Assembly: GCA_012295275.1 (NCBI GenBank)
Contig: CM022665.1
Coordinates: 16,678,001-16,742,000, forward strand
Direction of reading: 5' to 3'
Length of the DNA: 64,000 bases
Source of the DNA: Chrysomallon squamiferum
Lineage: Eukaryota; Animalia; Mollusca
A program made the translations under genes and the position numbers. Numbering within the stretch: the stretch's first letter is position 1; every line of letters starts with the position of its first letter. Positions 5,001 to 54,719 of this stretch are shown piece after piece. The notes under the pieces were generated by a model, which saw only the letters and a program-made list of their open reading frames with translations, was not told where the DNA came from and did no database searches.

Positions 5001-8000
5001 TAAAATTAAAACAGAATTTGTAGGTATATATTTTGAAACTCGGTTATAATAACCATTAGATATCCATGATCAATTCACATTCAAACATGTGCTCATTATA
5101 TATATATATATATACACACAGGCATACACACACATGTATGTATATACGTATATGTGCATGTGTGTTGTGTGTGTGTGTTTATGTTTGTGTATGTACACAC
5201 ACACACAAATACATCAATTTCTGTTGTATACATGTGTAGGTATGCTGCATTAATTAATATCAAAACACACCTGTCTCTTCCATTCTTTTTCACCTGACAA
5301 GAAGCTGTGGGTACATGGCCATTGTCACACCTGGTCTTAGTGACCTGTCCACACACATTCAGAAAGTAGTCGTATGTAGCATTCTGGTCATGTACTGTGT
5401 AATATTCACCTGCATTCTTTGTCAGTCGAGACAGGTCAAACTGATACCCTAGTTAAAAACATACAATCACAGTCTGCTAGAACCTCTAGATGTTTACATG
5501 TCAATAATTAGTTTATGAATATTTTATATTTTCTGTGTGTATGTATGTATGTATGTATGTATGTGTGTGTGTGTGTGTGTGTTAAAAGAAATATGCGTAA
5601 TTCCTGAAAATTTCAGAAAATATGCATAAATTTTGATTCACTCAAGTAGATCATCCTCTGACTGCAACTGATGGCGAATTTCATAAAGGAGGTTAGATGA
5701 TAACAGGCCAGTGAATAAGCAGAACCCAAGTGTGACAAATGGGGAACATTTAATTTCGTGGAAAAAGTGTAGTTTTCAAACTGAACACATTTGACTCCTG
5801 AAGTCCATTCAGTTATATTATTATCTCTTAACCAACAAACAAGCATGCACTTAATGTCACAGTTTGCTCTTTCTACAGACACCTGCCTCTGTGGATGCCG
5901 GGCTTTCCCAGAGTCTATCATCAACTGGCCACATTACATTCAGTTCAGTGATTACACATATTTTCTGACATTTTCAGAAATTATACCAATTTCCTGATAA
6001 TAAACATTTCTTGTGACATATATATATATATATATATATACACATATTCTTGAAGCTATGTAAGTTACATTTGAATACGTATTATACCTGCTTCATCATC
6101 AGAGACTCTACAGTCACTTCCATTTTTCTGTGACTGTACGCAGGCTGCTGCAGTGTACCACTCAAACTCATACATGCAGTTATCATTTGTCTTCTGTACC
6201 AGTACTGGTCCACTCTCCAAGTCACCTGTCAAATACAACCACCTCAAAATGACACCACAATTCTTACATGTCGATGTAATTCACAACAAACATTCACATA
6301 CACATATATCGTTTCTTTATAGTTTTAATTATTTCAACTAATTTTAATTTCATTCTTTTCATAAGAAGAAATTAACTTTACTAAATAATTACTGTTTGTA
6401 TATTGTTAGTCACATTGTTTGCATAATTATAAGTGTGTTTTCCAGATATTTGAAAAATCAGAGACAATGTAATATTCCTCGTGTTTTATTATTAGCAAAG
6501 ACATCTTCACAAACTGAGGACAAAAATGTCATTAAGTTTTCACAGTGTTTAGCCTAATATTTGCATATACTGATGGATGGATGGATGGATGGATTAAAGT
6601 TAATTACCTGGCCTGCAAATGAAGTTGATGACAGAGGAAGTTTTTCCCTTTCCACAAGCAACGCCACCAGTGTACTTCAATTTTAGGTTTTGAGACTTGG
6701 TGTCATAAGTCAGTTTTTCAGAAAATGTTCCAATATTGTTAACTCCTTTTTCATCTGTTTAAACAGAACAGTAATAATTAAATTAAAGTTGATTTATTTA
6801 ACGTAATTTAGTTTCCTTTTGTTTCTGGAGGTTTTTTCGCAGTTTATCTTTTTATTATTGTTATTCAAAGGTGACTAAACATTTTAAAATATTAAAAAAT
6901 CAAATACATGAATTTTTTTTCATTCTTAAAAAACAGCATATATAAAAATTATGAAACAAAATATATACATAGAGAAGCAAAAAAAATAATAATAATAATA
7001 ATAATTTAATATTATAAATAAAATATCTTTATTTTTTACTGTTTCTTTTTCTTTTTTTTTTATTAAATTTATTTACTTATTTCTTTTCAAATTTTATTTA
7101 TTTATTTATATATTTTGAATATTTTATTTTTTTACTTTTTCATGGCCTTATACCGTCATATCATTTCTCTGAGGTCTCTGCATTGTAAAATATGAATGAA
7201 AGTGTTCTAAACAGAAAATATCAATAAATTTACCTTTAACACAAATGGCACTGTTGGCAGGGCAACCAGACGCATCTCCAGTTTTCAGTACATCGTGACA
7301 AACATTGATAAAGTACTGTTTCTTTTCATCTTGACGAGTGCCATCTAGAGCAACCCAGTTGGAACCTTAAAAATAAAAATATGTCTTCTTCAGCATCCAG
7401 ATTAAACACAGCCCTACTGCAAAGTACTTGCCTAAGCAGAGTCATTCTAGGAAAAGTAACTTCAAGTGGTATATTTTACAAACATTCCACAAAATTTGGA
7501 CAAAATAACCCAATTACTAAAAGCAGTTTTTACACGTTTGTTTTCTTCTTTTTGTTTTTCTTCAAAAAATGTTTTTCAAACTGGTTATGAATTATCTTTA
7601 AAAAAGATTATTTTAAAAATATTTTACCACTTTTCCTCACTAAAGTAGAGAGGTCATAGCGATGACCCTTATGATCAACTTGACAAAGGTCATCAACTGA
7701 ATGCTCTACACAAGCATACTTGGTCTGCCACTCAAAGAAGTAAGTACAGTTCTCTTGTCCTGAGAACACTGGTTTTCCTTTTCCATCATCTTCTATAAGG
7801 AAAGAAATATATTTTTAAAACAATTCTATGTAACTGTGTGTTACTGGGTGTGAGGTAGTGAGAGAGGGTAAGACTGAGAGAGAAAATTGTTAACAGTTAC
7901 TCCTTTTTTATCTCTTTATACAGAACAGTAATAAGGGAGGGAGACTGACAGGCAGAAAGAGACAGAAAGTGAGATTGAGAGAAAGAGCAAGTGAGTAAAT

Positions 8001-10512
8001 GAGTGAGAAAGAGAGAGCGAGAGAGAGACAAAGAGAGAGATTGTGACAATGTGTTAAGCATTATCAAACAGACTTTTGCACAAAATTTAGAGTGAAAATA
8101 TAAAATAAAAATAATAATTATATATATATACAGGGTGGCCCAAAAGTAGGTTTACAGTGAAATAAAAACAAATCATAAAATGAAAAGTTAGGTTTACAAA
8201 AATGAAATAAATTGCAAGCAGCAAGGAAAAAGTGTAAATTCAAGTTAGATCCGAGGAATATTTTATGTTCATTGTACTTAGCAAGTAACTTCAAGCATAT
8301 AAACAATAGTTTAATAACTGTAATCTACTTTTGGGCCACCCTGTATATAAATATAAATATATATGTATTTTAGAACACAGATAACAAAAAAAAAAGGTTG
8401 GTAAACAGGATTAAAACATGATCAATATAAATTCAGTTAAGTACCTGCAGATTTGTTACACTTGAACAGAATGATGGTTTCTCTGTGGAAATGTGTGTGG
8501 CATGTATCACCATTTCTGTATGTCAGAGTGAGATCTCCATCAGAGTATCTGCAAAATATTTTTTATTATTAATAGTTTAACATTAACTTCAAAACAGTTG
8601 TAAGATGCTGACATGGCTGAATCCATCATATATACATTTTTCTTGATACAGTACATATATACTAAAGCCTTTGATAAATTAGATGGGGAGAATGGGTTTG
8701 CTGTCATGCACTGGGGAAGTACTGAACCACTGAATTACTAGCAGTGTACTATCAATGAAATCATTTTTAATATTTACTAACAATGTAAAAATGTGCAATA
8801 TTTACTAACAAAGGATAATTAATATAATAATTTTCAATATCTAATAACAGTGTGTTTATACTGATAATGTCTGTGTAATATTTTTCGTAGGTATTAACAA
8901 CATGTTATTACTGTAATAATTTTGAACCATTCACCTAAGCAGCATGTCATCTTTCGTTCCTAGCTGTCTGGCAAATGATGAGTCTTCAGTTTTTAACTGG
9001 CAAACCGAGGCATGTGCTTTCTTTGAACACGGAATAGTCAACTCCTGACAAACACGGATATAATATACATAGTGATCATTTCCATCAGTGACCGACACCG
9101 TATATGCTGCAAAAAATAAAGTGATGAGTTTGATAAAAATCTACTACTACTTAAATGTCAGCCAATAAAATCACTGTGAGAATCTGGAACAGTGTTTTTT
9201 TATTTGGGGGGGGGTTCCTCTATTCATAATTACAATTAAATTTTTTTTAAATCAATCAATCAAATTAACAATACAGACAAATAATTAACTTATTTGGTAA
9301 AAGAAGAAAAGTAAGTTTTATTGTTGTGAGTTTTGTATTTTGAGACAAAACTGACCAAAATGCTAACATCATAATGAATTAATATGTGAAGGAGTTTTTA
9401 ACGACAACCTGATATATAATTTAAATGAAAGGTAACAGTTGTTATTTTTATGATGAAGATACATGAGAAAAAACCTGCTACTACCATTCACTGGGCTATG
9501 CTGATGTGTCAACAGCAAGAATTCCTTTCCGAAGCACCTTTGTATAATCAAGAAAATACAAATAAGGAGACAGACAATTAAATCTCACCAGTTTTGCTGG
9601 TCAAAGGTGAAAGGTCAATGTCAATGTTGTGTTCTTCGTTATTGAGTTGGCACGTCTTGCTGGAGAGGATGCTGATGTCACATGCATACTCAGTGTACCA
9701 CTCCACTGTGTACTGACAGTTGTGATCATCCAGTAAAAGTGGATCCTTGCTCTGAAAGATGATTTATTTCATTAAACTTTAATTACACTAACAAACATTA
9801 ACAACTTCCTCATTTCAAATTGTAAAATAACATCTATACATGCATCCAGTTTGTGCATACTTAAGCTCCCATTAAGATTTATTGCAATCTTTAATCTCTA
9901 ACAAGGTTAAATAAATAACAACTACAATCACCAAAGTGTAACAACAGCTGTTAAACCATTTAAACAGGATATCTAGTTTAGTTTCTCAGTACCAAAAAAA
10001 TACTCACCCCACCACGCTCTGGACAGATAAAGGTAATAGTTGTGGTGGGATTGTCTAAACAGGTATCTGGTTTTGATGATGTTGTATACTGTATCATTAG
10101 GTTTCCATCTGTGGTCACCTGCAAGTGTCCAGCCAGCTGACCCATGTCCTGAGCTTTTCCGTTGATCACTCTGCACGCAGCAGAGTTTGCTGGACATTTA
10201 CTGAGAGAACTGGCAGTACCTGGGAAAAATAGAAAAGGGTGACTGATGTCCAAGAAATGCAAAGTAGCATCTCTACTGGCAACCTTTTCAATTCTAAACA
10301 TCCTTCAGCAATTAAACATGTATCATGTGGTCACTTTAACCAAACAGGACTGAAAACAGGACAGATAATGAAACTATCAGACATTTACTTTTACTTTCTC
10401 CCACTCTGTGTTTCACATACACACACACACCTACATGGGACACAGACACAGAAATAAAGACACAAACATATATACATGTACACACATGTACATATCCAAA
10501 TATATAAAAGCA

Positions 10513-10550
<38 letters not shown>

Positions 10551-12484
10551 CATACACATATCCCTACACATGTATGCAATTAAACATACATAAAGAAAGA
10601 CAACAATAACAGCCACACAAAAAAATATATAATTAAATTCAACTATTCTTCACTGTCTTAAATGAATTTGAAAACTCACATACCACTGATATCCCTGCAC
10701 ACATTAATGTAAAACTCTCTGTCATTGGATGAATCAACTAAATATCCACCAATTGGTTTTATCAGAGGAGATAAGTCATACTTGATCCCTTTCAGATACA
10801 TGTAACATGGAACTTCATTAATTTCTTTCAAATCTGTACAAAATGCAATCGATTCCCACTGAAAAAACACAGCACATCCCATCGATCCTAAGTATTCTGG
10901 AGAACCCTGTGAAAACAGAATATTTAAGTAATGTTTCAGTGTATTAGCAGATAATTTGGTTAATGCTGATAATGTATTTTATTTCACATTATAATATTCA
11001 TGTTATTAAAATAAAGTAATATTCAGCTTCCTAACATCATTTTTATATGTAAGATGACAAATATTAAAAACTTTATAGTTGGCATACTGTAACAATTATT
11101 TAAAACTTCACACTATGTATAGTTTAACAAATATTAAAATCTTTATACCAGGCATACTCATACTGTAACAAATATTTCAAACTTCATACCTCGTGTACTC
11201 AAACAAATATTTGAAACCTCACACTATGTATACTGTAATAAATATTTAAAACTTCATAGCAGGTATACTGTAACAAACATTTAAAACTTCTTATCAGGAA
11301 TACTCTAATATTTAAAATTTCAAACCAGGTGTTTCCCACATCGGAAGTGAATCATTGCTGAATAGAACTCTGTAGGAGATTGTAAACAGGAACTACCATG
11401 ATAAATCACAGTCAATTCAGATTCAGATGAATTTGTCCTGGTATCCAAGTTTTCTGTCTGGTTGCCAACGGAAATATGGGAATCATTATGATGGTTTATC
11501 CTACATATGGCAGTATTTTGTGGACATTTATTATCATTGTTGTTTATTGAACACAGATAAATTTTAAAAGTGAAGTTTCCATCGTCTGATCCAATTACCC
11601 ACGGATTAAAACTGAAATACAGATAATTAAAGAGTGAATGATTCTGTTGTTTGTTTGCTGTTGTGTTTTCATGTTTATATGTGTTTGTGTAAGTATATGT
11701 GCAACTATATTTATATATACTTCATTATTAATTAATACTGGTAAGAAAAATACATGAGAGTAACTTGGAATTTACAAATATATATTAAACCTTGTTATGT
11801 CCAAACTATATTAACTAGCAAAGTTCTTAGTTATTGATATTTTGCAATTTAGAAGGAGAATAACGTAACTACATTAGAAACCATCTGCTGCACAGCATTT
11901 TATGTGTATATGTGTGTGTGTGTGTGTGTCTTGGCCTCTAATAAACCACTTATACAGCACATAAAGAAATGGAAACACACAAATATTTGGCAAGAGGAGG
12001 ACTGATCCTGAAACCAATCACATTTCAAGTTAACAGTCTACAGGCTTTTATATTTTAATTTTAATTACCGTTATACGTGTACGTGATTTTTAAGCGGTTC
12101 TTATTTATTACTACTTTTTTAATGTTCATTTAAGAATGAGTTGTCAGGCAAAATAATTTTTAATGTATTAAATAAATAAATATACAAATAAATAAATAAC
12201 TTATTTTGACTGCCAAAATAATTTTACAAAATAAGGAAGTGAAAATCATGTGATTAAGATTATCATTATGTCTGCGACTGTTGATGTTTTTTTATTTAAA
12301 AAGTTATTCGATTTATTTAAAGCAAAACTTACGCAGACAGTTGTGTCACATTATATCCATCAATAATGCAGTCAGCACAATAAAAGCAATCGGTGTTATT
12401 AAGCACAATGAAAATAAATAAATAAATTTTAACAAAATTATATCTTTCCTTCGATTGAACACCGTGCAACTTAGCAGTCGCCAT
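1..12484 (-). CDS. IGF2R: Cation-independent mannose-6-phosphate receptor / IGF2 receptor, 5' part (signal peptide plus MRH domains 1 to ~7); continues beyond the left edge
   Basis: Phase-consistent GT-AG exons: 12333-12484 (ATG, MATAKLHG..., hydrophobic signal), 11326-11611, 10684-10906, 10008-10219, 9589-9751, 8935-9106, 8445-8548, 7628-7792, 7234-7365, 6608-6754, 6088-6225, 5271-5448, 4554-4841, 3976-4156, 3398-3571, 2844-3053, 2412-2595, <1-12. Repeated CIMR motifs (YDLSPL, FYINVC, CxYxFEWxTxxAC). Segments such as CQYTVEWYTEYAC, RYSDGDLTLTY, DLESGPVL and CSIKDPNSDFIFNL closely resemble vertebrate IGF2R in the same domain order. Confidence 0.95.
5598..5983. mobile_element. Degenerate non-autonomous DNA element (MITE-like) in an IGF2R intron
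   Basis: Imperfect ~32-bp inverted repeats: TAATTCCTGAAAATTTCAGAAAATATGCATAA (5598-5629) and TTACACATATTTTCTGACATTTTCAGAAATTA (5952-5983), enclosing a more GC-rich interior. No clear TSD. Confidence 0.45.
8131..8343. mobile_element. Tc1/mariner-type MITE (213 bp)
   Basis: Terminal inverted repeats CAGGGTGGCCCAAAAGTAGGTTTACAG / CTGTAATCTACTTTTGGGCCACCCTG, flanked by TA on both sides; no coding capacity. Confidence 0.85.
11055..11330. repeat. Degenerate ~34-bp minisatellite abutting the IGF2R exon 2 donor
   Basis: About 8 copies of a unit like AACAAATATTTAAAACTTCATA(n)ATACTGT. Confidence 0.75.
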
Positions 12485-12839
12485 TTTGTCATAACGCTAT
12501 GCGCAGCTACGTATTTGAGCACAGACACTATTAGTCACATGATTGTCACGGGACTTTGAAACCATATTCAAAAGACCGGGTTTATACAAAGATTGTAATG
12601 AAAACAGTTATTTTTATAAATGATTATATTATTACAGAATCAGACGAATAAATACATTAATTAATTTAATTAAATTTGTAAAGTTTAAAATAATACTGTT
12701 TTTTTTCTTCAAATTAAAATCTGTAGCGAACTTACGGGTTACGATGTCATGATAAACATTTTATTTGATAATTATCATCATGACTATATGACTATTATTA
12801 TCATTATATTATTTTGCCGTTATTCATTTAGTTTTAACA

Positions 12840-12890
<51 letters not shown>

Positions 12891-13238
12891 TATTGAATTC
12901 TTCCTCTTCAGAAAATTAACCATTTTTATTTTACATTGTTTGTTTGTTTAAAGAATAAAAATACTGCGAACGACTTGGTTGGAAAATGTCTAAACCATAT
13001 ACATGTTTTTTAAAATGTTTACGGATTTTATCATAATATACGTTGTAAAATCCTTTCTTATTGGTCATATATGATGTATCAAATTATATATATGAGATAT
13101 ATTTTCACAAGCTGTTCACGATATTTTAAAGTAATTATATCTGTTATTATATGTATGCTATTTATCTATTTTCGTAAACTGAAGAATTTAATTACAAATT
13201 AGTCCCCATCTATATATGTACTTTAACATTTTCTGTTT

Positions 13239-13304
<66 letters not shown>

Positions 13305-15104
13305 GTACACTGAGAAAAAGAACTATAGAGCGTGCACGCACGAACGCAATATATTTTTACAATGGACAAACATTTGATTATTTGTCTTTAGTCATAAATA
13401 TTAAAAATGCATTAATAAATTTAAAACAAAACAAAAAACACACAACCTAACACGTATCTGTTAAGACCCTGTTTATTTACACACCTTGAGGGTGTGGCAA
13501 GGCATGCATGCTGGTTGTGGTTTTCAAAATGAAGTGTTTTCCTTAAAAAATAATAATTTTAAGATTTAACTGGCACGTCGCAAAGTGCGGTCGACTTCCT
13601 CGTCCTGCTAGGTTTAGGGCGGAGTCAGAAAGCTCTCGGTAAGTTCATTTCGACAAGTCATTTAAAATCAAAACCTTTTCTCACTGACAACGTCTGTCGC
13701 TGGGAACCTGCAGCTAACGCGTTTGTTGGATTGTACTCTGGCCGTTAATTTGACGCTAGCGAGCAGATTTCTCTTCCATTCAAGGAGCTGGTTTGGACCT
13801 TTTTTGATTTTATTTTTAAAGAGTGGTTTTTTGGTGTTTTATTTTTTTTTTTTTTTTTTTTTTTTTTGGTGTTTGACGTTTATTATAAATGCTTATTTTA
13901 TTTTTTTTTATCTTGACCAAAGGGAGTATTGTGAGATTTTATTTTATTTTATATATATATATTTTTTTCATTAAAGGTATGTTATATTACGATTTTTTCA
14001 AACATATATTTGTCATGCCTACCTTTTTCTGATTTATTTATTATTTGAATTTTATTTCTTTTAATTAATTTATTTATTTACGTATTTATTTAAAGTAAAG
14101 ACGTAGAAAACAGGACTAAAGAAAAAGTAGGGGAACATAGTTGAAATTAAATATATATATTCTTTACATTTTATTTTGTAATCTCGATATGATGTTTGTA
14201 TCAACCACTGTCTTTTTCAGTTAAACATAATTTTTATTTATTAATTTACTTACTTATGTATTTATGTATTTATTTATTTATTTTTAAGAACATTACAAAT
14301 ATTTACATAAATATATGTATGTATGTGTATATATATCTAGACAAAGCAGAGAGAGGGAGTCAGGCGTTATGACGGACACGCAAATAAAGACACAAACATT
14401 CAGACTTTACTTTTTTCTCATAAATAATTAATGTTAAGAAAGAAGAAAAAGAAAGATTACAGCAACAACAACAACAACAAACAAAAAATAATAATGATAA
14501 TAATAATAATAATGATGATGATGCTGATGACGATGATGATAACAGTAGTAGTAGTAGTACTGATCCTTGAGTTATTATAATGACAGATTCTGGCCTAGAA
14601 TGTACAATTTTAGAGAAGTAGCTGTGATTTAAAATTATTATCTGGGGTTTTTCTATTTCTTTCCGATCTAGAACATTCCTCTATCACCGGACTAATTAAC
14701 ATTAACCACGGCTCTGCGTTCAATCTACACTTAAAAACCAAAAGTATACGAAACACCAAGGTACTGCTTGCATTCAACCTGCAAAATATTTCACAATACT
14801 TTCGAAAAAGCACGCTTCTGGCGTACTTGTTGGTGTTTCAAAGTGAAGTCGCTGCCGTAGCCGAATTGTTTGAATTGTCCCGCCAGGTAGATTATCAGTG
14901 CGGCTTTTGATCTTTGTGGTTTTGGCCAAACTTTGACCTTCAAAAACATTTACCTAATTGTGTGTGTGTCTGTAAGTACTCCTAACGTTGTCTTTTTCGT
15001 AAACAAGTCAAACTGTGCAAATACATGCGTGACGCGAAGACATTTTTTTTTTTTTTTCAACGTCTTTCTTTCTTTCACTTCTTGTTGTAAACACCTGCAT
15101 CTTT

Positions 15105-16200: not shown

Positions 16201-16699
16201 GAAGTAAAACATATTGATAATATGAAAAGTAAAACTCCAAGAACTGTTGTCTGGTTACTAAAAATGATTAACAGCAAAAGATGTTTGATATGTATATCCA
16301 CATAGCCTTTTATTATGATAATGATGTCGACAATGATAATGACAACAATAATGAAAACATAATGATAATGGGAATTTATTACAGTAATTATGTATTTAAT
16401 AATAATTATTATTATTACAACTAAACACCAAACCTCAGTGATGATCCTAACTCTCATGCTCTTTTTTATTTTATAAAATCATTTGAATAAACAGATAATA
16501 CTTTTTTTTTTTAAACTGAATTTAATGACTATTTTATACTTTGACCTGCACTGACAATAGACAGACATAGTTACATATTTTTTTTATTATTATTATTATT
16601 ATTTTTTTTTTTTATATAAATGTAAACTAGATGAAAGTGATAGGTGACTAACATATTGATACTTTTTACTGAAGTGGCTTTGTTTTTTCAGATTTCACC

Positions 16700-18870
16700 A
16701 TGATCTGGTTGCTCTGTTTGTTGGCGTTGTCCGCGTTTGATGTGTTGGCCCAGAGAGGGCCAATAGTGAATACAAACCTTGGAACTATTGAAGGAAGAGT
16801 TCGTAGATATCAGAATGATCCAGTTTTTATGTTTGTCGGTATTCATTATGCAGAAGCACCAATAGGAAGACTCAGATTTAAAAAACCCGTCCCCAGAAGA
16901 GCCTGGTCCGGTGTCCTTGACGCCACTAGATTTGGCCCATCATGTTCACAGAGGTCAAACACAGCATGGCTACCCAACAGAGACACTAGCGAGGACTGTT
17001 TGGTGTTGAATGTCTTTGTTCCTCGGACGTTAAATCCTAATCAACCAAAAGCTGTGATGGTGTGGATTCACGGAGGAGGTTTTGTAGTTGGACAAGGGAT
17101 GGCAAGAGATGGAACAAACTTGGCTATGACAGGAGACGTGATAGTAGTCACCATCAACTACAGATTAGACGTGTTTGGTTTTCTCTACACAGGAGACAGG
17201 GAATCGCCTGGGAACTACGGTCTTTGGGACCAGCAGCTGGCTATACAGTTTGTGAGAGATCACATATCAGGGTTTGGCGGAGATCCAAACAGAATTACTA
17301 TATTCGGAGAATCTGGCGGAGGTTACAGCGTGGGCATACATTCCATCATTCCATCAAGCCGAGGTTTGTTTCAGAGAGCTATATGTGAAAGCGGTGTTGG
17401 GATATCGCCACGTGCCATAGCTTTTGATCCAATTAATTTTACAAGACGGCTCAGTGATAACCTCGGCTGCACGAGACTCGATGCACGAGGACAACTAGAT
17501 ACTGCTGCCTTTATGGCATGCCTAAGGAACCAAGCGACAGGGAGGATTCTGGAGGCTTCTGCGAGGGCTAGAACTCCGACAAAATTGGCTTGGCGACTTG
17601 AGATTGCCCCAGTTGTAGATGGAGTGTTAGTACCCGCTCGACCAAACATTTTAATCAGCGAAAACAACCGCCAGCACTACAATCCCATGCCCACTATTGA
17701 CTTCATGGCCGGCGTCAACGATGCTGAAGGAGGTCTCGTCCTGTGGCCTCTAAGGAACTTCCAGCGAAATCTAAACTTTGACATCTCGCGGGGGATTCCG
17801 AGAAGAGTATTCTGTAACAACATAGCGCCCAGCATTGCCATGGACTATTTCAATGGATCAAGGGAAATAGCTGAAGCTATCTGCAGACAGTACTCCAATG
17901 TTTCAATCTCAAACGCCGAGCAGGCGAGACAAGTAGTCAACATGTACGGGGACATGATGTTTGTAGCTCCTACACAACTCTCCAATTTGATACACGACAG
18001 AAATAATCAGAACCGTGCAACGTATCAGTATCTGTTCACACAAGGGCGAGGAGGTTCTCCTGTGTGGTTTCAAGGAGCCAATCACGGAGCGGAGATGCCG
18101 TATGTATTCGGATCCCCCCGAGTAGCAAATAGACAGTTGTCACAGGAGATGATGAACTACTGGGCGAATTTCGCTAAGTTCGGGTTAGTATTGGAGTTAT
18201 TGTTTAGTGACTGTACTAGTGTTGTTCATGTGTGAGCATCGGCTGTAAATATACGCGTTTGTTAATACGATGTAAGTTAATGCATTAAACTCTTATTAAG
18301 CATAAGCAGGCAAACTGATATATTTTAGGTCTCAACAGCTGATTTTATAAAAGTGTATAATATTTATTTTTTTTTTTTTTTTTTTTTTTTGTAGACTTGG
18401 CTAAGATATTTCATGAATACGGACAGGAAAGTAACTGATAATATTAAGAAAAGGAATCAGAAGTTCATTATATGAAAATATACTTTATTTTCATAGTTTT
18501 TGCTGCTAATCGCTTATTTAAAATTTTATTTTATTCTATGCCACCTATTAATTTTTGCAGCAACCCAAACGGCCAGCCTGGTTCAGTGATAGTCCAGTGG
18601 CCAGCGTTCAACGTGTCACACAAAGGCTATATAACACTGGGAGGCAGAATCACAGCAAACTATGATCTCTGGCCGAGAAGAATGCAGTTCTGGCTGAACG
18701 AAATTCCTCGTTTACAACATGGCGGAAGTTTTCTACCAGTCCCCGACATACCGAGTACTCCACGAACGCCTACAGGATCACAGCCCCAGAGTCCGTCGGG
18801 AGCAAGGTCTTCATTCTATTGGTCAGTATCGATGATGATCACGTGGCTCGCTGTATTCTTTCTGCATTAG
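16700..18870 (+). CDS. Type-B carboxylesterase / cholinesterase-like protein (~597 aa), secreted and probably GPI-anchored
   Basis: Coding exons 16700-18183 and 18561-18870 join as FAKFG-NPNG. Signal peptide, SEDCLVLNVF, WIHGGGF oxyanion hole, GESGG nucleophile elbow, NDAEG (Glu) and NHGAE (His). Pro/Ser/Thr linker then a hydrophobic C-terminus. Acceptor TTTTTTCAG ends at 16690, so a non-coding first exon lies upstream. AATAAA at 18974. Confidence 0.93.
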
Positions 18871-19494: not shown

Positions 19495-20399
19495 TTAATG
19501 GATCTCCAGCTCCATTAATATTAAATATAATTTTTTTGTTGTTGAAAATGTGAAGCAAGTGTTCATTCATTCATTGTTTGTCTCCTTGCAGGGGATAAAT
19601 AGTACCTATTGTTTGAGAAATGATAAACCAGCGAGCATGGATGTACAGTCTAACGTATCAGTTATGAAGTGGAAGAAGAAACACAGGCAATATTAATAAC
19701 AAAGCAGTGAAACTTAGTCATTTCAATTAGTATATTATGTTTTTGTATAGGCTAAGACCAAAGATATTTTATTTAAGATTCTGTATAATACAAAAGTTTT
19801 ATCTATTATTTTATTACATTTTAATTACAGTTATTTTTGTTTAATGTTTATTTTATGTGCACATCTCATAATCAATAGTCGATTTTGCCCAACCATGAAT
19901 CGGATTTACGTCGATCTCCCGTGTGACGAAAATTAGTCCCTGCGAAACAGACCTATGAAATTCAATCTAAGGGAAATAACTCTATTAATAGAAACACTGA
20001 GTCTTCGTAAACATAAATAAATAAATATGGCAATACAATTAAAAGAATATACAACTGTGGTCAGCAATTGCTGTTTCCCTTACACCATTTAAAAAACCAA
20101 AAACCAAAGAAATAAAAAAAATATAAACAAAAATCATAAATAATAATTACTAGGTCCATACATAAATTTTAGTTATGTATATATATATATATATATTTAA
20201 TTTAATCTCACTTGGTTTAACTTGAGTGGGATTTATCTGATCACACTCGATCTCTAGCATATTATATATTTATCCAGTATGTCATGTTTTTACATTTCAA
20301 CAGACAGCAGCAAAAACATTAATTTATCCAATATTTGGATAGGTAAAAGAAAATAGGGGAAACTTATTATAATAAAAAAAAACAAGATATCAAGACATC

Positions 20400-20469
20400 T
20401 GATTTTATCAAGTTTATTTACAACCTCCACATTTTAGACATTTTAGCTTCTTGGAATACTTGTAACATG
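20400..20469 (-). other. Probable non-coding terminal exon of the EGF-like gene
   Basis: Donor GTAAGT directly after 21131; acceptor TTTACTTTCAG at 20470-20480; AATAAA (minus strand) at 20413-20418. The 3' end is approximate. Confidence 0.55.
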
Positions 20470-21133
20470 CTGAAAGTAAAGAAACCCCCATGTATGTGTA
20501 TCTATACACACCACACAAATACATAGATTTCAGTTTTATATACAACAGTAGTTCAGACATTGATCATAGACTGATTTATTGTTTCAGATATACAAATATA
20601 TATATTATATATGTATGTTATGTATCGCAGCTTATTTGCAGCACAAACATATAACTATACATGTATTCTTTTCTATTTTACTTATGTGCATTAAAGATAT
20701 AATATCATTTAAAGTAGTGTTGTTATTTCATATCAGAAACAGTGAACTGGAATATAAATTTTGTAAAACTGAGATACTTGACAAATCATACAGAAAATTA
20801 TCACTGGAAGTTTATAAATTGTGCATATTTGATGATTTATACAAATTACATATTCATGAACTACCAATTATTATGTACTAATGTTCTAGATATATATCTA
20901 ATATATACACACATACACATGCATTCATGCATACACAATATACAACATGCACATATCCACACACACATCCATATACTGATACATGCACACACATACATAA
21001 AACATATATAAAAAATACATATACATACATAAACACATAGTGTAAGAGAAAGAAATAGATATGGTTTTATTAGCCAGTTAGATGGAGAATCCAACAGTAA
21101 AACTAAATTTATAATATGGAGTGGACTTACTTA

Positions 21134-22606
21134 TTACCCATTAAGCAGTAAAAGAACATCAATTTCTTCACATCTCTTTCCTGTCCACTCTTCTGGACAA
21201 CTGTAAACATCACAGTAAAACAAAATATGTAACCACATACATATATGTTTTATAATAAATATGTATATATATGTGTCTGCATATATTTATTAATGAGTAT
21301 TCTGTTGTCTTATGCACATCTGATTAGATTCTGCACATAAGACAATATTTGGGAATGCACTGGCACAGGAGGACAAAGTCATATCACAAACATCAAATGC
21401 TGCTGACAAAACTTGAACTTAAGTCACCCATTCCCCCACACTCCACAGGCAGAAGGCAATATTACTCGATGACCAAGACAGTTTTAAAAAAAAAAAAAAA
21501 CATTGCTGAGTAACTGAGTGTAAACCTAACTTCCTCCAAAGCAGCCAGATTTTTGTTTTGTCATTTTTCATGCATTTCTTTTTTTTCTTTTTCTCTTCTC
21601 TGACATTCTGACTAGTGAAAAAAAAGTTATTTTTACTTACAAACAAGTCTGTTGTTCAAGAGATGGAATGTACATACAGGTTCCACCATTCAAACAGTAT
21701 GTCTGCTTAAGACAAGGGGAATAATGTGCACATAATGACACAGCTGTTAAACAACAAATTGGATGAAAATCTCTCTCTCTGCATATGTGTTTTTGATGAA
21801 TATTTTAAAGACTTTTAAATGAGTGTTTATAAGTTTTAATATTTTTAACTGGGTATTTAATTTATTTGGATATACAGGTATATTCATTTTTAATTAGATA
21901 TACTTCTTTATTTACTTAATAATATTTTTAGTTGGGTATTTATTTTATTTTGGTGTCACATTTCTCAATCTCTTTCCTGGTTTCAGAAACAAATAGTGGA
22001 TATAATAACACAACTGTAAAAATTAGTGTGAAATAAATAAGTTGAATTAAGTATTTGCAAATTTGAATATCCATTTATCAATATTTCTCAGAAAGCAAAG
22101 ACTGCCATGTGTATGTATACATATACATACATACATACATACTTGATGAGCTTTGTTATCACTACCAATATTATTTAATTTACATAATCTTAATTATATT
22201 TAATTTATATAATGTTAATGAATATTTTAAACAATCCCAAAATTCATTATTTTTCAAATATCTTCTAAACAATATTTAATGGTTTTGTTTGTATTTTATA
22301 TGTGAAGTGTTTAACTTAATGGGAATCTAGATACAAAAAGAGTTAGGGCAGACATATAATAATATTTTACCTTTCATAAGTCTTAAGCTTTCCTAATACA
22401 TTTGTTTCAAAGGAATACACTATTTTATAAGAAATATATATATATTAAATAATGTTTTTTTAAAAAGCTATACATTAAAGTTTTAAGTTATATTAAGTTT
22501 ATTTTAAAAAGAGAGGTTATGTTCAGATCTATGATAATGAGTTAAATAACTCACCAAACACGCCGTAAAGTGGCACCAGAAAGAAGACTAAATGGAATGT
22601 CTTCAT
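21134..22606 (-). CDS. Secreted single-EGF-domain growth factor (ErbB/EGFR-ligand-like, no transmembrane segment), 73 aa
   Basis: Exons 22555-22606 (phase 1 donor GTGAGT), 21641-21743 (acceptor TTAACAG, phase 2 donor GTAAGT) and 21134-21200 (acceptor TTTACAG, stop TAA TAA) splice to MKTFHLVFFLVPLYGVFAVSLCAHYSPCLKQTYCLNGGTCMYIPSLEQQTCFCPEEWTGKRCEEIDVLLLLNG*. Contains a signal peptide and a six-Cys EGF motif with YCLNGGTC and GxRC. Confidence 0.9.
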
Positions 22607-23069
22607 ATCTGTAGTTGATATGTCACGACATATCTGAGCTGTATCTCACAGATGATACTTCCCACAGTAATTTATAAAAACCTTGTAAATGTTCACATAC
22701 ACATATACAAGCATACAAAAACATACAGCACATATACACAGCATAACAAACACATCACACGTGTCAAAAATCCCATACACACACCAAGAAATGACACACA
22801 TACATACACAAATCACCTGCCAGAGTGATACAAATCACACACACACACACACACACAGAGATTTTAGACTAAGTAAAGAATCCCACTAAGTTAGACAACA
22901 CAAATGTAAAATACAAACAAAGCCTTTAAATATTATTATTTAGAATGTATTTGAAAAATAATGAATTTTGGGATAATTTCAAATATTCATTAAGATTATA
23001 TATAAATTAAATATAATTAAGATTATGTAAATTAAATAATATTGGTAGTGATAACAAAGCTAATCAAGT
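22141..23069. repeat. Long inverted repeat (arms 22141-22328 and 22877-23069) enclosing the EGF-like gene promoter and exon 1; foldback/Pack-element-like
   Basis: Left arm ACTTGATGAGCTTTGTTATCACTACCAATATTATTTAATTTACATAATCTTAATT... aligns along its full length with the reverse complement of the right arm ...AATTAAGATTATGTAAATTAAATAATATTGGTAGTGATAACAAAGCTAATCAAGT. The outer ends are nearly identical; the inner ends are more diverged. Confidence 0.9.
22671..22676 (-). promoter_or_regulatory. Candidate TATA box of the EGF-like gene
   Basis: TATAAA on the minus strand about 65 nt upstream of the ATG at 22606. The motif is weak evidence in AT-rich DNA. Confidence 0.4.
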
Positions 23070-23346
23070 TTTCTACAACTGAAGCATAACAGTAAAATTT
23101 AGTAAATTTTAGATATTATTTTGTTATTTTCACTGTTATTAAATGTTTGTTTATTAAGTCTGATGTCTTTATTTCTGTCTCTCTCATTAGTTTGGTCTCA
23201 GGATCAGTTCTCCTTAGTGGAGACTCTGGGTTATTTTAGTGTTAGAATTTCAGAGTGACTGAAACAACACAAAAAAAAAAAAAAAAAAAAAAGATGAAAA
23301 AACCTACAAAAAACAAACCACAAACACAACATCAGAAGACATCATA

Positions 23347-26300
23347 TCAAGAGTCTGAAGTCTGTAAGTTTGTCTGTCTTAGTTTCTCATAGAGTGAATA
23401 TAATTCTTGAACAGATTCAGCTTCCCAACTGGAATGTTTACTGTAACTGTCTTGCAGATTCTGAAGAGCTTCTCTAAGATTCTGGAAAAAAATTAAACAA
23501 ATAAATAAATAAAAAATAATAATAAATTACTAATTTAAAAAAATAATAAATTAATAATAATAACAATAATAACAAGAACATTCACTGAAGATATAAATCT
23601 GTAACATATTCTAAAAGTAAATGCCTACATTGTTTTTCCAAGACACTTTTAGTTTGTTAGTGTGTTAGAGAGTTAGACGACTAAAAATAATATGGTTTTA
23701 ACTTGTCCTATTACTTATGGATAGTGATTCGATATTGGTACCTACCAGTTTTTGAATTTTGATTTAGATTTTAATCTATTTATTAACACTATTTATTTTA
23801 ACTGAAATACTCAGTTTAAGTTTTATTATAATTATTTTATACAGACCTATGCATTAACCATTTTATATATAATTAATTTAAAGCAGTCTTTTATTATTAT
23901 TATTTTTATTAAAATTTGTTTTTTGTGATTTTGTTGTTTCTTTTTTTTTCTTTTTCTTTTTAAATAAAGCCAAAATCCTATCAGGCTGAATTATAAAACA
24001 ACAACAAAAACAAAGCACCCCCCACCAAAAGAAATATCTGTCGTAAAATATTCTTCACTTCAGTCACATTTGCAATACAAAGAATTATGAAATTATTAAC
24101 ATATACACATCCTCTCACTGCTTTTAATGTTTTCCGTCTTAACAACATTTAACTTTTTTTTTTAAATACAATGGATTTGTGAGTAAACAAAATAACTAAC
24201 ATACCTCCATTTGTTGTAAAAATCTGCGAACTTGTTTTCTTGAACATGGTGTCACATCAGCATCATTCTTCTGAAATGTGTACATATGAATTTTAAATTA
24301 ATATACACATATATACATTACATATATATACATACATACATACATGTATAACTATATATACACGTAAACATTCATTCATCTGAAATGTGTGTATATGAAT
24401 TTTGAATTGATATATACATACATACATACATGCCCACCTACATATACACAATTCTTCTGAAATATGTACATATGAATTTTAAAATAATGATAAATTACAG
24501 ATAAATAGGTATACATAATTTTAAAGATTCAGAATTAGTCTTTCTTGTTCATCTTTACTATCAGTACGTATGTCAATTGAAAAACTAAAAAACTGCTGTA
24601 TGTGTTATCCTTTAATTCCACACCTTTGGATAAAAACTGATGTTAAGAGGTATGCAAAAGTAAAAAATAGCAACCATGAAGTGTTCTTTGAGTTAATTAT
24701 ACTTTAATATTAACAAAGATTGGGCTCCAGTATTAAAAAATTAAAACAATCTCACAAATAAACAAATAAAATTATAAATCCTAAGGAAACAAAATGGGTT
24801 TGGGCTTTTTGTGAGCATCATCCATACTTTAATAACAAATAAATAAATCAATCAATCTGAACTATTTAAAATATGTATCTGTAAATATTTACTTTAAATG
24901 GGTAATGCATTTACCTGTAGTCTATTAATGACAGCCATCCTACACCTAGCAACTAGAGGCAGGCTGTCTGATCTAACACACACTGTCACAATGTTGCTGC
25001 TGCTGCAGTTGCCACTGCTATTGTTGCTGTTGTTGTCCGAAGATGTTTCTTTCTTAACAGAAAGTGCCAGGGTGTTTCCGCTTGGATCAAGAAACTGACC
25101 TTGTCCGTGTTGTAAATTATCTGTATTAATTTGTGAGTCTTGAAGAAGGAACCGTAATATTTGTTCTGGCGTACAGTCATCTATTTAAAATAAAATTTAG
25201 ACTAATGACAGTGAAACATCTACAACAGAGTTAAAAATTAATACAAATATGAATCTGTCTCACTGCATCATCTCAGCTCTGAGGTCTTAAGTACAAGAAA
25301 AAAAAAAAAAAGAATCAGAAACGAGTAAAATTTACTTCATGATTGTCTGTAGTCAGTTTGCAAAAAGTGTACGGGACTAGTAACTGTTGTTGTTTAAGCT
25401 GGTCATATTCAGTAATTTTTGTGTAAATATGATTATTATTAGTTAAAATATAATTGTATTAAAAGAATATATCCAGTGATCATATGCAGTGTTTTGCAGA
25501 TCCAAAAAGATGATTAATATTAGTGAAAAAGTAATAAATCAAATGAAGTCTGTAAGAGTTGTATGTTTTGTAAACTGAAAATATTAAGATTAAAGAATTT
25601 GTAACTTTTTAAATAATTACTGTAAATTTTAAACTTGGTTATTAACATTTAACAAAATATAGAGTATTTGTTGCACTAACTTAAAATAAATGATCATTAC
25701 AGTTTGGATTATTTAAAAATAAACTAATCTACAAACCTTCATGAAAATCAGACGGTAAAGAAGAAAATGGTAACAAAATTTCAGCTGAGTAAACTTTATG
25801 AGAGCAGCTGTCCAATTTGGGTTTGGAATCACCAAGATGATTCAAATCACTTATGTAACTGGAATCACCATAATGCCTATTATATGCCAGTTTCTTCAGA
25901 GTTTCATCAAAACTGATGGAGTATCCTGGAGGAGTGGAGTCTTCTCCAATAAAAGAGAAGATATCTATCACATGAGAGGACACAAATAATGGAAGATGGA
26001 GAGGCGTCTCAGAACCAGTTTCAAGAAAGGTTTTATCAAGATTAACAACAAGCTGAACTGTAACTTTGAAATCTGACATCCTGATAAACTTTTCTGAAAG
26101 AGGAATCTTCATCAGAAAGTCTGTCTTAGCTTTCAAACCACTGAATAATGGAAAATCATGAGATTCCAGTTCAGTTTCTGATTGGTTGTTTGTTGTGATG
26201 AGAATATTAATGTTCCAGTCTGGTGATAATGATGCAGGGCTTTCATTGGTTAATGTGACTGAGAGGCAGTACTGCTTACTGTAGCCACACCTATAGGATT

Positions 26301-29089
26301 CCAAACTGCAATGTGACCTTATCAGTCGTGACCTTTGAACCTTCTTTTCTTCAGATATCAAGTGTGATGCCATGTTCAGCTGTTGTAGAAGTATATTGAG
26401 ATGGTTCTGTTGTTTCTGAATGTAGGTTCTTCTTTTGCTGTTGCTGTCAAGGCCCATTAGTAATTCTTTCATTGTAAGTGACCTTGACTGGAGAGTGAAT
26501 TTTGTGGGGTGGGTGTCAAGGATATACAGGTCACCAGTTTCTGTATAGCACAACATGCACTCCTCTAAAAACAAGTAAGAAAAAACAAATTAATATATTT
26601 GAAATAATAATAATAATAATAAAATGTCAATTTATATTGAATTTGTTCTCCTTCTAAAACTGTTTTTAAAAAAAAAAATTTATAGCTAGTAATATTTGAT
26701 TCTGTTTCATTATTTTATTTTTAAATGGTTAGAATATTTCCACAATTTATTTAATACATTCTTGAGTTAAGTATTTCTGGAATGATATCATCTGGTTATC
26801 TTGTAGTAACTTTCACTTATTTCACTGGTTATTTATATTAGAAATTTTGTCTTTGGAATGAATAAATCAATCAATGAACTATTTTTGGTTAAACAGAATA
26901 TATCAGGTATTCAGATTATGGTTTTAATAAGTTAAGTGTTTTGTTGGGTATTCCTAAAACAAATCCTTTTAGTGGAATTTGAATTAACTGATATATTACA
27001 AAACTCACCAGATTTTACTGGTCCAGGCACAAAAGCCATCTGAGAGATACTGATATCATGAATAATCTCAGTCTGGATGGAGAAAGTAATATCTTCTTTC
27101 CCTTCATCACAGATTTTGATGATTGTTGACCTAAACACAGACATTTTAGAACAGTGGAAAAGATATTTCCCTTGACAACTCCAGCTTAACACTGGACCAT
27201 GAACAGCTAAACTGCAAAATGTTACTGATCCATTAGAATTTTCTCCCACTACAACCACTTTCCCCATCTCACAACAAATCAAAATGACATCGTTTGAACC
27301 TTTTTCAGACTGGCACATCAATGGAAACAGTGTTGGGTCAGAGGTCACTGTCTCACTCTCATCCAAATTGATGCATGCGATGTAGGAGATGCAACTACCT
27401 GTTTCACTGAACATCTTCCAGTGATCTGATTCAGACAACTCTTGTTCTGATAACTGCTGAGAGTACATACGACCATCAGGAGTTGAAATTACAAGGACAG
27501 GGAAACCACTTAGTGCTGCTTCTTTACCAAACAAAACTGAAAACATCTGAGTTGAGATTACTATAGATGATGATGAAGTCTTACAAGATTTGGTATACGT
27601 CTCTGACACAACCAAATACAAAGAAAACTTGGACCCATCTTCATCAAAACAATCATATTTAAAATTTAACTCGTATCTAGTAATTAATGATAAACACTCT
27701 CTGCTTCCCGTTTGTTTTGTTTTCAGGCTGTAATAAGATATACTGAAGTTTTTATCTTTCTGTTCCAAGCACCACAAGTGAGTGTCCACAACAGCAAGAC
27801 ATAAAATGTCACTGTTTTCCTGAAGAATAGTGTAACTGTCTTTCAAAACAAAAACAGGTTCAGATGTGGGAATCAAAGTTCCAGAAAATGGGTGGACAAT
27901 ATCATTGTCAAGTAGATCGTCAAATATTTCTTGATTTGAAATATCAGCTTCATCTCTGAAATATATTATCAATTAGAATTATAAATCATCAGCTGCTATA
28001 TCTTTAATGTTAGAAATATGATTATTTTTATTTTATTTTATTTGAGTATTCTCCAATTAATTCTATGTTCCAGTAACAATTTTCAATGTTTTATTGGACA
28101 TGCTTTTGCAACAACAAAAAGTAATAATAATAATAATAATAACAATAATGGTAAAAATAATAAAATAAATAAATAAATAAAATTAAATACTAATTAATTT
28201 AAAAAAATGTTTTGCTGTTGTTTTTTCAATTAGTACCTCTTCAAAAAATATTTTAATTTAGATAAGAATAAAATATGATTATACATTAATAAAATTATTA
28301 TTATAATTATTATTTACTGTCTCACTTTGTAACATACTTTGTAGATATTTGTCCTGTATGTTCATATGTCCTGGTGTCATTCTCTGTGATACGGTACACA
28401 CAGTTTGCAGTAGCCACCCAGAATTCCAATTCATCATTGTTGTAGTTCAAAACAACATTTGTTACAGGACTTGGGCTTTTTATAATCAGCTGCAAAAATA
28501 ATAAAAATGTACGTTTACATTTTTTTATTATTATTATTCTTAGTGAACTATAGGCCTCTAGTTGTCTATATGGGGGGGGGCGGACAGAGGAATTAAACAT
28601 GTATTATGATTATCTATCAAATATTTCTGGTAAAGTAATTTATATTTATGTTCAGATTTTACTAGCTCGAAATGTTGATGAATATTTGTATAGCAATTGA
28701 CATCTAGCATTGCAAATTATTGTTGTTGTTTAATCTGCAGTCGGCCTACAATTACATTAACAATGATCTTAATTATAAATTTTCATATTCAGGAAGTTTA
28801 TCCGTGTTTCTATACACGTGCTGTGAAATGCGTTATACTTTCACCTGTCTTTTTATATTTTCATACTGATGAATAAACTGCCCGCCAAAGACAAATGCTG
28901 AAATCTGAATAGTATCACTTTTTCTTAATGAAACCATTAGCAATTATTAAGAATAAAAAATCCGCGAACATTAATTTTGTTTTTCGCGCAAATAGTTGTC
29001 TGCGCTTGAAAGAGGTTTACCTTAAAACACGGACTTTTTCTTATGCCATTCTAATATTCCTTATAAATGCGATCAACAAAAACAACAAC

Positions 29090-39629: not shown

Positions 39630-39987
39630 TTTAGATTTTAACAATGGTTTAGCGTATGACTGTGATTTAGAGTATGACAATGATATACAGTATGACAGTG
39701 GTTTACAGCATGACAGTGGAGTAACGTATGACAATGGTGTAATGTATGATAATGGTTTACAGCATGTCACTGGTATGGGATATGACAATGATATTTAGCA
39801 TGACAGTGGTATACAGTATGACAATAGTTTACAATATGACAGCAGTATACAGTATGACAATAGTTTACAATATGACAGTGGTATAACGTATGACAGTGGT
39901 TTACAGTGTGACAAAGATATACAGTTTGATAATGGTTTACAGTATGACAGTGGTATAGAATATGACAGTGATATACAGTATGACATT
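39630..39987. repeat. 18-bp minisatellite
   Basis: About 19-20 copies of consensus ACAGTATGACA(G/A)TGGT(T/A)T. Explains the SYCKPL-repeat ORFs at 39606 and 39795. Confidence 0.9.
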
Positions 39988-45841: not shown

Positions 45842-46718
45842 ATGAAGGTAGTCGATCATAAAATGGACATGATAATACATTACTTCGCAATATCACTTGG
45901 CCTCAACTGTTTCCGTAATCCTTTCCGATAAAAGTATTTTTCCCAAACCGATTACCAGTCACTTGAAGGAATCTCGATGCTCTGCTGGATTTCTGTTTTA
46001 TCATTGTCCAGTTAATCCTAATGAAATTCCATGCATTTAAAATCAAATAGATTAAAATTCCATCGTTAATGCGTGTCCGTTTGATAACTATTGATATTTC
46101 ACATTGTTTTTTATGCGTCTTTAAAAGTGTAAAAATAAAAATAAATGTGTTTTCATTATCAAATAAGCAGTTTCCAGAAAGAGTTCTTTTGTTGTTGTTG
46201 TTATTATTATTATTATTATTATTATTTAACAAAATAAAATATAATACAATTTAATTACTTTCTTTCTTTCATTTTTTTATTTTTATTTAAATATTTATTT
46301 ATTTATTTAGATTGGAAATCTTCTCGTGGCTTTTGTCTTCGGCTTCCTCATCGTCAACACGTCAGCAGTCACAGAGTGCGACACGCTCTGCAACAATGAC
46401 GCAGGTGCTGTTTGTTCCAACATTTTTTCCACAGTGACGATCGACAACCAAAAGGCTGATTCTGCTGCCTTGTTCTTGGTTTGTTGCCTGGGAAGCGAGA
46501 GCGCCATTCATTACAAATTCAACTACATCAAAAACAGCCTCTTTCCGGAGACAGTCATCGGAATATTCCGAAATGTTGATTCGGAATTCACAGCCAAAAG
46601 GTTTGCTGTGTTCGTGAGGAATTGTAGTAAGGGTGGGAGGAGGTTGACTTGGTCGGATTGGTATAGGTACTACGTAGGAATAATGTACTGCGAAGAGAAC
46701 CCATGCCCAAGCCCATGA
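45842..46718 (+). CDS. Small secreted cysteine-rich protein of unknown family (~137 aa)
   Basis: GC-richer ORF with a phase-0 acceptor TTATTTAG at 46303-46310 (exon 46311-46718). Candidate first coding exon ATG AAG/gtagtc at 45842-45847 gives signal peptide MKIGNLLVAFVFGFLIVNTSA. The mature part has 8 Cys including one CC pair. Confidence 0.75.

Positions 46719-54670: not shown

Positions 54671-54719
<49 letters not shown>

What the first reader, a model, noticed from the sequence alone, without database searches (positions are those of the whole stretch)
21134..22606. Hidden micro-gene for a directly secreted, transmembrane-less EGFR-ligand-like peptide
Seen: three tiny coding exons (52, 103 and 67 nt), none in the ORF track, splice in frame to a signal peptide plus one EGF domain (C-x5-C-x5-C-x10-C-x-C-x8-C) and stop 11 residues after Cys6. 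Known: an intron between Cys4 and Cys5, the GxRC motif, an aromatic residue before Cys2 and a hydrophobic residue five positions after Cys6 are hallmarks of ErbB ligands (EGF, TGF-alpha, neuregulin). Most of these are made as membrane precursors that need shedding. Lymnaea L-EGF is a precedent for a precursor with only a signal peptide and an EGF domain. Inference: a secreted EGFR ligand that needs no shedding, has an unusually short first loop (x5 rather than x7), and is easily missed by gene predictors.
Basis: partly seen in the sequence, partly recalled or inferred. Interest (0 to 1): 0.8.

Follow-up and report, generated by a model that had tools for sequence, protein, structure and literature searches.

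The report
Minimal neuregulin-derived secreted growth factor gene
A tiny three-exon animal gene encodes only a predicted secretion signal and one growth-factor domain closest to that of ribbon-worm neuregulins, so it would likely release a ready-made EGF-receptor signal with no cutting from a membrane anchor, a design already known in other invertebrates; its spliced RNA was not seen.

Summary
Three minus-strand exons (52, 103, 67 nt) with canonical GT-AG introns give a 73-residue frame: a hydrophobic leader, one EGF module (x5-x5-x10-x1-x8), and a stop 11 residues after Cys6. The closest relatives are the EGF modules of two nemertean neuregulins, 29/49 and 25/45 identical. They share the x5 first loop, and their isoforms diverge exactly where intron 2 lies. 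The x5 loop is therefore common among invertebrate neuregulins and not an oddity. No neuregulin Ig or transmembrane exon lies in the window. A strong donor just behind the stop looks like the relic link to a lost transmembrane exon (inferred). RNA contigs from three shallow runs showed no splice joint, only unspliced pieces, so expression is not shown. A tree did not resolve the origin. Leader-plus-EGF precursors are published for flatworms, nemerteans, annelids and ant venoms. Verdict: likely a real, unannotated, directly secreted EGFR ligand cut down from a neuregulin/Vein-type gene; a new member of a known kind. The scan's notes held no earlier finding of it.

The parts
22555..22606 (-). 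Coding exon 1: ATG plus 17 codons of a predicted signal peptide (Lys at 2, hydrophobic core)
   Evidence: best 19-residue hydropathy mean about 2.1; donor ranks at the 99th percentile of minus-strand GT sites (approximate recalled weight matrix)
22609..22610 (-). Possible acceptor AG two bases before the ATG, which would imply a non-coding upstream exon
   Evidence: weak pyrimidine tract (0.56); not tested
21744..22554 (-). Intron 1, 811 nt, phase 1, GT-AG
21641..21743 (-). Exon 2: end of the leader with extra Cys22, then EGF Cys1-Cys4; phase 1 to phase 2
   Evidence: (Pfam EGF E 0.0016, under the curated cut-off)
21201..21640 (-). Intron 2, 440 nt, phase 2, between Cys4 and Cys5 (ErbB-ligand hallmark); holds a short high-copy repeat
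21134..21200 (-). Exon 3: Cys5-Cys6 loop with G-x-R-C, 11-residue tail, TAA
21125..21130 (-). Donor consensus GTAAGT behind two stop codons, 13 codon positions after Cys6; likely the relic of the donor that led to the neuregulin transmembrane exon
   Evidence: (97th percentile); the match of position to nemertean neuregulin is inferred from isoform sequences
21066..21071 (-). AATAAA about 60 nt after the stop, candidate polyadenylation signal
   Evidence: weak, since AATAAA is common at this A+T content

Best explanation
This is likely an intact micro-gene for a directly secreted EGF-receptor ligand, derived from the two EGF exons of a neuregulin/Vein-type gene that lost its Ig, transmembrane and cytoplasmic exons. 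Shown: exon-intron anatomy, open frame, ligand-type residues, closeness to nemertean neuregulin, and no neuregulin Ig or TM exon in the window. Inferred: exon 1 sends the chain into the ER; the leader is cut near residues 18-23; a peptide of about 50-55 residues folds with disulfides 1-3, 2-4 and 5-6 and leaves the cell with no ADAM, rhomboid or BACE step. It would bind the animal's own EGFR through the positions that match EGF Tyr13, Leu15, Arg41 and Leu47. Output would be set by transcription and secretion, probably in one tissue, stage or after injury. The origin is inferred to be duplication of the EGF exons, gain of a leader exon and a stop just before the old donor.
For: The eight best PDB matches of exon 2 are EGF or EGF/TGF-alpha chimeras and the next five are neuregulin-1; 13 of 15 rows are ErbB ligands. 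Among 13 hits in 1.84 billion representatives, the only two single-stretch hits are P0010 and P0011 at 66%. Both have NRG2_N (E 1.6e-5, under the Pfam cut-off, and 1.8e-8), Ig and EGF domains plus a hydrophobic TM-like stretch, and come from Tubulanus and Lineus; the Lineus one is named pro-neuregulin-1-like. The spliced product scores 77.8 and 72.4 bits against them, and 50.4 against the best other protein of the 142 compared. Tubulanus isoforms diverge right after Cys4-x. Contig L002 has a phase-2 GTAAGT intron at the same place in another ligand-type module. The Cys4/Cys5 intron is the published ligand criterion. Residues conserved in EGFR ligands map to Tyr33, Leu35, Asn36, Gly38, Tyr42, Trp57, Gly59 and Arg61. 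Exon 3 was not in the query, yet it is the second-best of 2812 window segments for P0010 (E 0.012). No neuregulin Ig, N-terminal or TM exon was found by tblastn, by a six-protein profile or by a TM profile (best E 0.64). TM-less spiralian ligands are published.
Against: No splice joint in three RNA runs. X1 has one contig bridging the intron 2/exon 3 border unspliced (depth 4.8) and X3 one bridging exon 1/intron 1 unspliced (depth 3.7); both could be DNA or read-through. The tree places the module in no supported clade, although its nearest rows are P0010 and P0011. On exon 3 alone P0010 ranks 3rd and P0011 11th of 309 segments. No orthologous short protein was found among 120 listed of 123 hits, so the micro-gene architecture is not shown to be conserved. 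A phase-2 donor just before the stop scores about as well as the intron-2 donor (87.7 against 89.8 percentile). The seventh cysteine may be left unpaired. SignalP could not be run.
Confidence: 0.65

Rival explanations
1. Silent relic: a duplicated piece of the neuregulin gene (exons 2-3) that is no longer or was never expressed, with similarity inherited from the parent.
For: Only unspliced, shallow RNA contigs lie on the gene. No short orthologue. The old donor is still intact behind the stops, which suggests a recent event. The gene sits only about 740 nt behind the last exon of the upstream gene, leaving little room for a promoter.
Against: All six cysteines, the receptor-contact residues, four splice sites and both phases are intact. 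A matching leader exon is rare by chance. The RNA runs are few, small, from one study and held as contigs.
Confidence: 0.14
2. The exons belong to a longer neuregulin transcript: a membrane form using a donor near the stop (or a one-base assembly slip there), or Ig exons outside the window, with the short form only one isoform, as in NRG1 beta3.
For: Two candidate donors lie at the stop, 21137 and 21130. The second is one base from the inferred nemertean donor position. Vertebrate NRG1 makes soluble forms by reading through this donor. The bases at the stop were not covered by the DNA run.
Against: No neuregulin TM, Ig or N-terminal exon in 21 kb downstream or 41 kb upstream. None of 132 further segments hit an Ig family (131 picked from 632 segments by GC, complexity and length, plus one added). 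Hydrophobic downstream candidates in all three phases are microsatellite-derived or antisense to the esterase. Same-strand genes lie on both sides.
Confidence: 0.11
3. An exocrine or defensive peptide, or a receptor modulator, like the EGF-type toxins of sea anemones and ants, aimed at other organisms or released in mucus.
For: Leader plus EGF only is the architecture of ant Mg1a, which its authors used as an argument for a venom role. Anemone and ant peptides of this build are among the hits.
Against: These peptides score 41-45 bits against 72-78 for neuregulins, and have x7/x8 first loops. The anemone peptides form their own group in the tree. There is a single copy in the window and no gland expression data.
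Confidence: 0.08
4. A generic (Notch/matrix-type) EGF module with no ErbB function.
For: Multi-EGF proteins lead by summed score; the Pfam EGF hit is not specific.
Against: Per-module best matches are ErbB ligands. The x10 loop, the Arg before Cys6 and the Cys4/Cys5 intron fit ligands.
Confidence: 0.02

Closest known systems
Nemertean neuregulins (P0010 Tubulanus XP_074648029.1; P0011 Lineus XP_064630533.1)
   Same: EGF module 29/49 and 25/45 identical; same 5-5-10-1-8 spacing; His-aromatic-x-Pro before Cys1; exon border after Cys4-x; Asp plus hydrophobic tail after Cys6.
   Different: They are 710-729 aa with N-terminal, Ig, TM and cytoplasmic parts; this product has 73 aa and none of those.
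Drosophila Vein and arthropod Vein-like proteins (L001, P0030)
   Same: Neuregulin-type ligand, short first loop (x4 in Vein, x5 in L001 and P0030); Vein is secreted and L001 stops without a TM segment.
   Different: Vein and L001 keep the Ig domain and a long N-terminal part.
Vertebrate NRG1 beta3 ('3'-stalk) soluble isoforms
   Same: Soluble because the Cys5-Cys6 exon ends before the TM exon (PMC3176322, passages).
   Different: An isoform of a large gene, not a separate micro-gene; x7 first loop.
Minimal spiralian EGF-type ligands (Prostheceraeus EGF-2 and EGF-3, Lineus ruber EGF-1, Capitella EGF-4)
   Same: Leader plus one EGF module, no TM (PMC4914847 supplement part 12).
   Different: By eye, other loop spacings and no neuregulin-like flank; classed as EGF-type; not aligned here.
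Lymnaea L-EGF
   Same: Secreted gastropod EGF that signals through L-EGFR (PMC4210270, passages).
   Different: Its sequence was not on hand and the original paper is not held, so orthology is untested. It was not among the named hits.
Ant Mg1a and anemone gigantoxin-type EGF toxins
   Same: Directly secreted single EGF; Mg1a has the same precursor build and is thought to come from a duplicated spitz gene.
   Different: Lower similarity, longer first loops, venom context; here the parent looks like neuregulin.

Membership tests
ErbB/EGFR ligand family (Stein and Staros criteria) | Single six-cysteine EGF module | tested here: met
ErbB/EGFR ligand family (Stein and Staros criteria) | Splice site between Cys4 and Cys5 | tested here: met
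   Predicted phase-2 intron; same border in Tubulanus isoforms and L002; criterion. The joint was not seen in RNA.
ErbB/EGFR ligand family (Stein and Staros criteria) | Receptor-contact residues (aromatic 13 and 22, non-polar 15, Gly18, Gly39, Tyr37, Arg41) | tested here: met
   List mapped; position 37 is Trp, not Tyr
ErbB/EGFR ligand family (Stein and Staros criteria) | Module close to a transmembrane segment | tested here: not met
   No TM in frame or in the window. Barberan et al. admit soluble ligands with zero TM segments, so this does not exclude it from the wider family.
ErbB/EGFR ligand family (Stein and Staros criteria) | Binds and activates an ErbB receptor | not testable with these tools
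   Needs a bench assay; no receptor of this animal was on hand
Neuregulin-type ligand (Barberan et al. 2016) | Ig I-set domain together with the EGF domain | tested here: not met
Neuregulin-type ligand (Barberan et al. 2016) | Transmembrane region | tested here: not met
Neuregulin-type ligand (Barberan et al. 2016) | EGF module descends from neuregulin | tested here: inconclusive
   Clear best similarity but no supported clade
Directly secreted peptide | Cleavable N-terminal signal peptide | tested here: inconclusive
   Basic N-terminus, hydrophobic core and small residues at 18, 20, 22 and 23; SignalP not available
EGF-like venom toxins (gigantoxin, Mg1a) | Venom-gland expression and action on another species | not testable with these tools
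   No tissue data; similarity lower than to neuregulin

The most novel reading that the evidence does not exclude
A mollusc has cut a neuregulin down to a free-standing 50-residue hormone gene: the two EGF exons were duplicated, given a new leader exon and cut off from the transmembrane exon by a stop next to a still-visible donor. It would be an unannotated second secreted EGFR ligand in snails beside L-EGF, and a sign that more such ligands hide below annotation limits.
Probability: 0.45. Interest if true: 0.55.

Novelty: new member of a known kind. Interest (0 to 1): 0.38.

Why it matters
Published surveys list only one EGFR ligand each for Lottia and Crassostrea. A hidden 222-nt gene suggests that molluscan ligand sets are under-counted. 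A small soluble ligand can be made and assayed directly, which helps in studying EGFR in molluscan synapse formation, repair and growth. It would also be one more independent case of an anchored ligand turned into a shedding-free one, here from neuregulin, with the loss still readable in the DNA. The design itself is known, so surprise is moderate.

Tried and rejected
No whole genome is held, so the parent neuregulin locus and the EGFR could not be sought. Two word-based protein searches with exon 2 plus a few intron codons found no candidate; they also missed P0010 and P0011, which are in that collection, so these blanks are weak. The profile search of 11-102 aa proteins (123 hits of 2054 candidates, 120 listed) gave coral short proteins, NRG4s, toxins, poxvirus growth factors and multi-EGF fragments, but no orthologue. 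RNA: 3 of the 4 RNA runs found and one probable DNA run were laid on 21035-22690. Exon 2 and the stop codon had no cover in any run, the DNA run included, so these holes prove nothing. The four joints in X5 are repeat artefacts. The tree of 38 modules (49 columns; poxvirus and most unnamed hits left out) had 4 starred of 35 inner branches. The Atlas did not hold the window sequence; the P0010 module gave only generic EGF clusters under 0.9. The metagenome motif scan gave 2 loci, neither an orthologue. A hydrophobic phase-1 frame from an acceptor at 21102 was rejected: it needs a 28-nt intron and is TG-repeat derived. A Spitz-like lipidated N-terminal Cys22 (recalled) was considered unlikely, since it needs cleavage after Leu. 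No fold or complex was run: the spliced chain cannot be given as one window reference, and no receptor sequence was on hand. Nine paper searches listed no paper on this gene; subscription papers are not covered.

Full report
Observation. The three exons are present at the stated places on the minus strand and splice in frame to 73 codons. Intron 1 (811 nt) is phase 1 and intron 2 (440 nt) is phase 2; both are GT-AG. The EGF module has spacing 5-5-10-1-8, and the stop follows 11 residues after Cys6, doubled by a second TAA. A seventh cysteine, Cys22, lies at the end of the leader. The exon-2 pattern never occurred in 200 shuffles and the exon-3 pattern 0.06 times per shuffle, and each is unique in the window. 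A leader-like first exon with a phase-1 donor occurs 0.2 times per shuffled strand (post hoc criteria).

Surroundings. The window is 19-39% GC in 2-kb steps and rich in microsatellites. Downstream lie a carboxylesterase on the opposite strand (PF00135, E 7e-127) and a multi-exon cation-independent mannose-6-phosphate receptor on the same strand (PF00878). Upstream lies a gene with a weak Fanconi-associated match (PF15146, E 0.004, under cut-off); its probable last exon ends near 23350, about 740 nt before the ATG. Earlier AI notes on this genome call the animal a snail; I did not test that. The scan's notes held nothing near this place, by words or by sequence.

What it resembles. Against the PDB, 13 of the 15 matches of exon 2 are EGF, EGF/TGF-alpha chimeras or neuregulin-1. 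Against 1.84 billion representatives, 13 proteins passed E 0.001. Eleven are multi-EGF proteins that win by summed repeats; the two single-stretch hits are P0010 and P0011 at 66%. These have NRG2_N, Ig and EGF domains and a TM-like stretch, and come from the nemerteans Tubulanus and Lineus. The whole spliced module is 29/49 and 25/45 identical to them, scoring 77.8 and 72.4 bits against 50.4 for the best other protein of 142. The five residues before Cys1 also match them best among 212 modules, though that flank was part of the original query. Exon 3 alone ranks P0010 third and P0011 eleventh of 309 segments, which is supportive but not unique. A tree of 38 modules left the placement open, with P0010 and P0011 nearest by path; Barberan et al. 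report the same lack of signal (PMC4914847, section 6).

The x5 loop. It is shared with both nemertean proteins, a Daphnia neuregulin fragment and an Ig+EGF contig that stops without a TM segment (L001). In supplement parts 14 and 15 of PMC4914847 I counted by eye 14 invertebrate neuregulin-type modules, leaving out the sea urchin entry, which has no clear module; part 13 was not read. Four have x5, three x4 (Drosophila Vein among them), two x6 and five x7. The loop is a common invertebrate neuregulin/Vein trait, and a short loop is compatible with a proven ligand (Vein).

Exon structure. The Cys4/Cys5 splice site is the published ligand criterion (PMC1618406, passages). Tubulanus isoforms diverge exactly after Cys4-x, like the alpha and beta exons of NRG1 (PMC3176322, passages). 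L002 shows a phase-2 GTAAGT intron at the same spot. In the nemertean isoforms the common sequence resumes at residue 14 after Cys6 in the form most like ours, consistent with a phase-1 donor there (inferred). In the window a GTAAGT donor stands after 13 codon positions, behind the two stops, one base from that place. By a rough hand estimate such a match has a chance under 1 in 200. I read it as the relic of the link to the TM exon. It also keeps open a one-base assembly slip, which could not check.

No longer gene in view. tblastn, a profile of six neuregulin-type proteins over 2812 segments and a TM profile found only the two EGF exons. Pfam on 132 further segments found no Ig domain. Hydrophobic downstream frames in any phase come from microsatellites or from the antisense strand of the esterase.

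Expression. Four RNA runs of one study hold 20-29% of the words of 20000-24000. Three were laid as contigs on the gene body. There was no splice joint; one contig crosses the intron 2/exon 3 border unspliced, one crosses exon 1/intron 1 unspliced, and one lies in intron 1, all at depth under 5. These could be DNA, nascent RNA or read-through from the upstream gene. Expression is neither shown nor excluded.

Mechanism. Predicted: the leader is cut near residues 18-23, and the mature peptide folds as an EGF module and is secreted without shedding. It would bind EGFR through positions matching EGF Tyr13, Leu15 and Arg41 (PMC3554757, passages) and Leu47 (recalled; Val67 here). If the cut falls after Ala18 or Ser20, Cys22 stays unpaired and could form dimers; this is open.

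Comparison with what is known. Soluble ligands without a TM segment arose in several lineages (legend). Leader-plus-EGF precursors of about 60-120 aa are listed for a polyclad flatworm, Lineus ruber and Capitella. L-EGF is a secreted snail ligand of L-EGFR (PMC4210270, passages); the original paper was not held. Ant Mg1a has the same build and is thought to derive from spitz (PMC8851504, passages). Gigantoxin I is an anemone EGF toxin (PMC10985097, passages; review PMC13311285, passages). The gene works like these secreted ligands. It fails the architecture test for a neuregulin (no Ig, no TM), while its module is most like one. No short orthologue appeared among the 120 listed hits, and nine literature searches listed no paper on it (listings only). 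The figure pages of the PMC4914847 supplement are pictures and could not be read; they may show more TM-less cases.

Verdict. A real, unannotated coding structure, likely a directly secreted EGFR ligand cut down from neuregulin (0.65). New member of a known kind; interest 0.38.

Noticed in passing
P0010 vs P0015/P0016 (Tubulanus); P0011 vs Lineus ruber NRG: Nemertean neuregulins have alternative Cys5-Cys6 exons, like the alpha/beta choice of vertebrate NRG1, so this switch may be old or convergent.
   Followed up: partly
P0006, P0014 (Plakobranchus, Elysia): Gastropod neuregulin-type proteins with Ig plus three or four EGF modules that end with no TM segment; P0014 is marked partial.
   Followed up: no
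window 21292-21390: Short dispersed repeat in intron 2: summed depth up to 14,445 in run X5 against about 46 for a single-copy contig; also present in RNA contigs.
   Followed up: partly
window 23350-27972 (-): Multi-exon gene with a weak Fanconi-associated (FAAP100-like) match; its probable last exon ends about 740 nt before the micro-gene start, so read-through is possible.
   Followed up: partly
window 16673-18870 (+): Carboxylesterase with a 520-codon exon and a second exon ending in a hydrophobic tail, possibly a GPI signal; it converges on the micro-gene.
   Followed up: no
window about 2400-13800 (-): Many-exon cation-independent mannose-6-phosphate/IGF2 receptor gene (PF00878 on one exon).
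   Followed up: no
window 39630-39985: 18/36-nt tandem array, about 20 copies, with open frames rich in Tyr-Asp; no Pfam match on the one adjoining frame scanned.
   Followed up: partly
window 46311-46718 (+), 54384-54824 (-), 61656-61904 (-): Coding-looking segments with no Pfam match; probably exons of further genes.
   Followed up: partly
L002:2480-2845: Marine metagenome contig with an ErbB-ligand-like exon (x7 first loop) at the end of a long open frame and a phase-2 intron after Cys4.
   Followed up: partly
P0025, P0032, P0034 (corals): Corals encode 92-94 aa leader + pro + EGF proteins with ErbB-ligand residues, although PMC4914847 found no EGFR or ligand in the two cnidarians it surveyed.
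   Followed up: no
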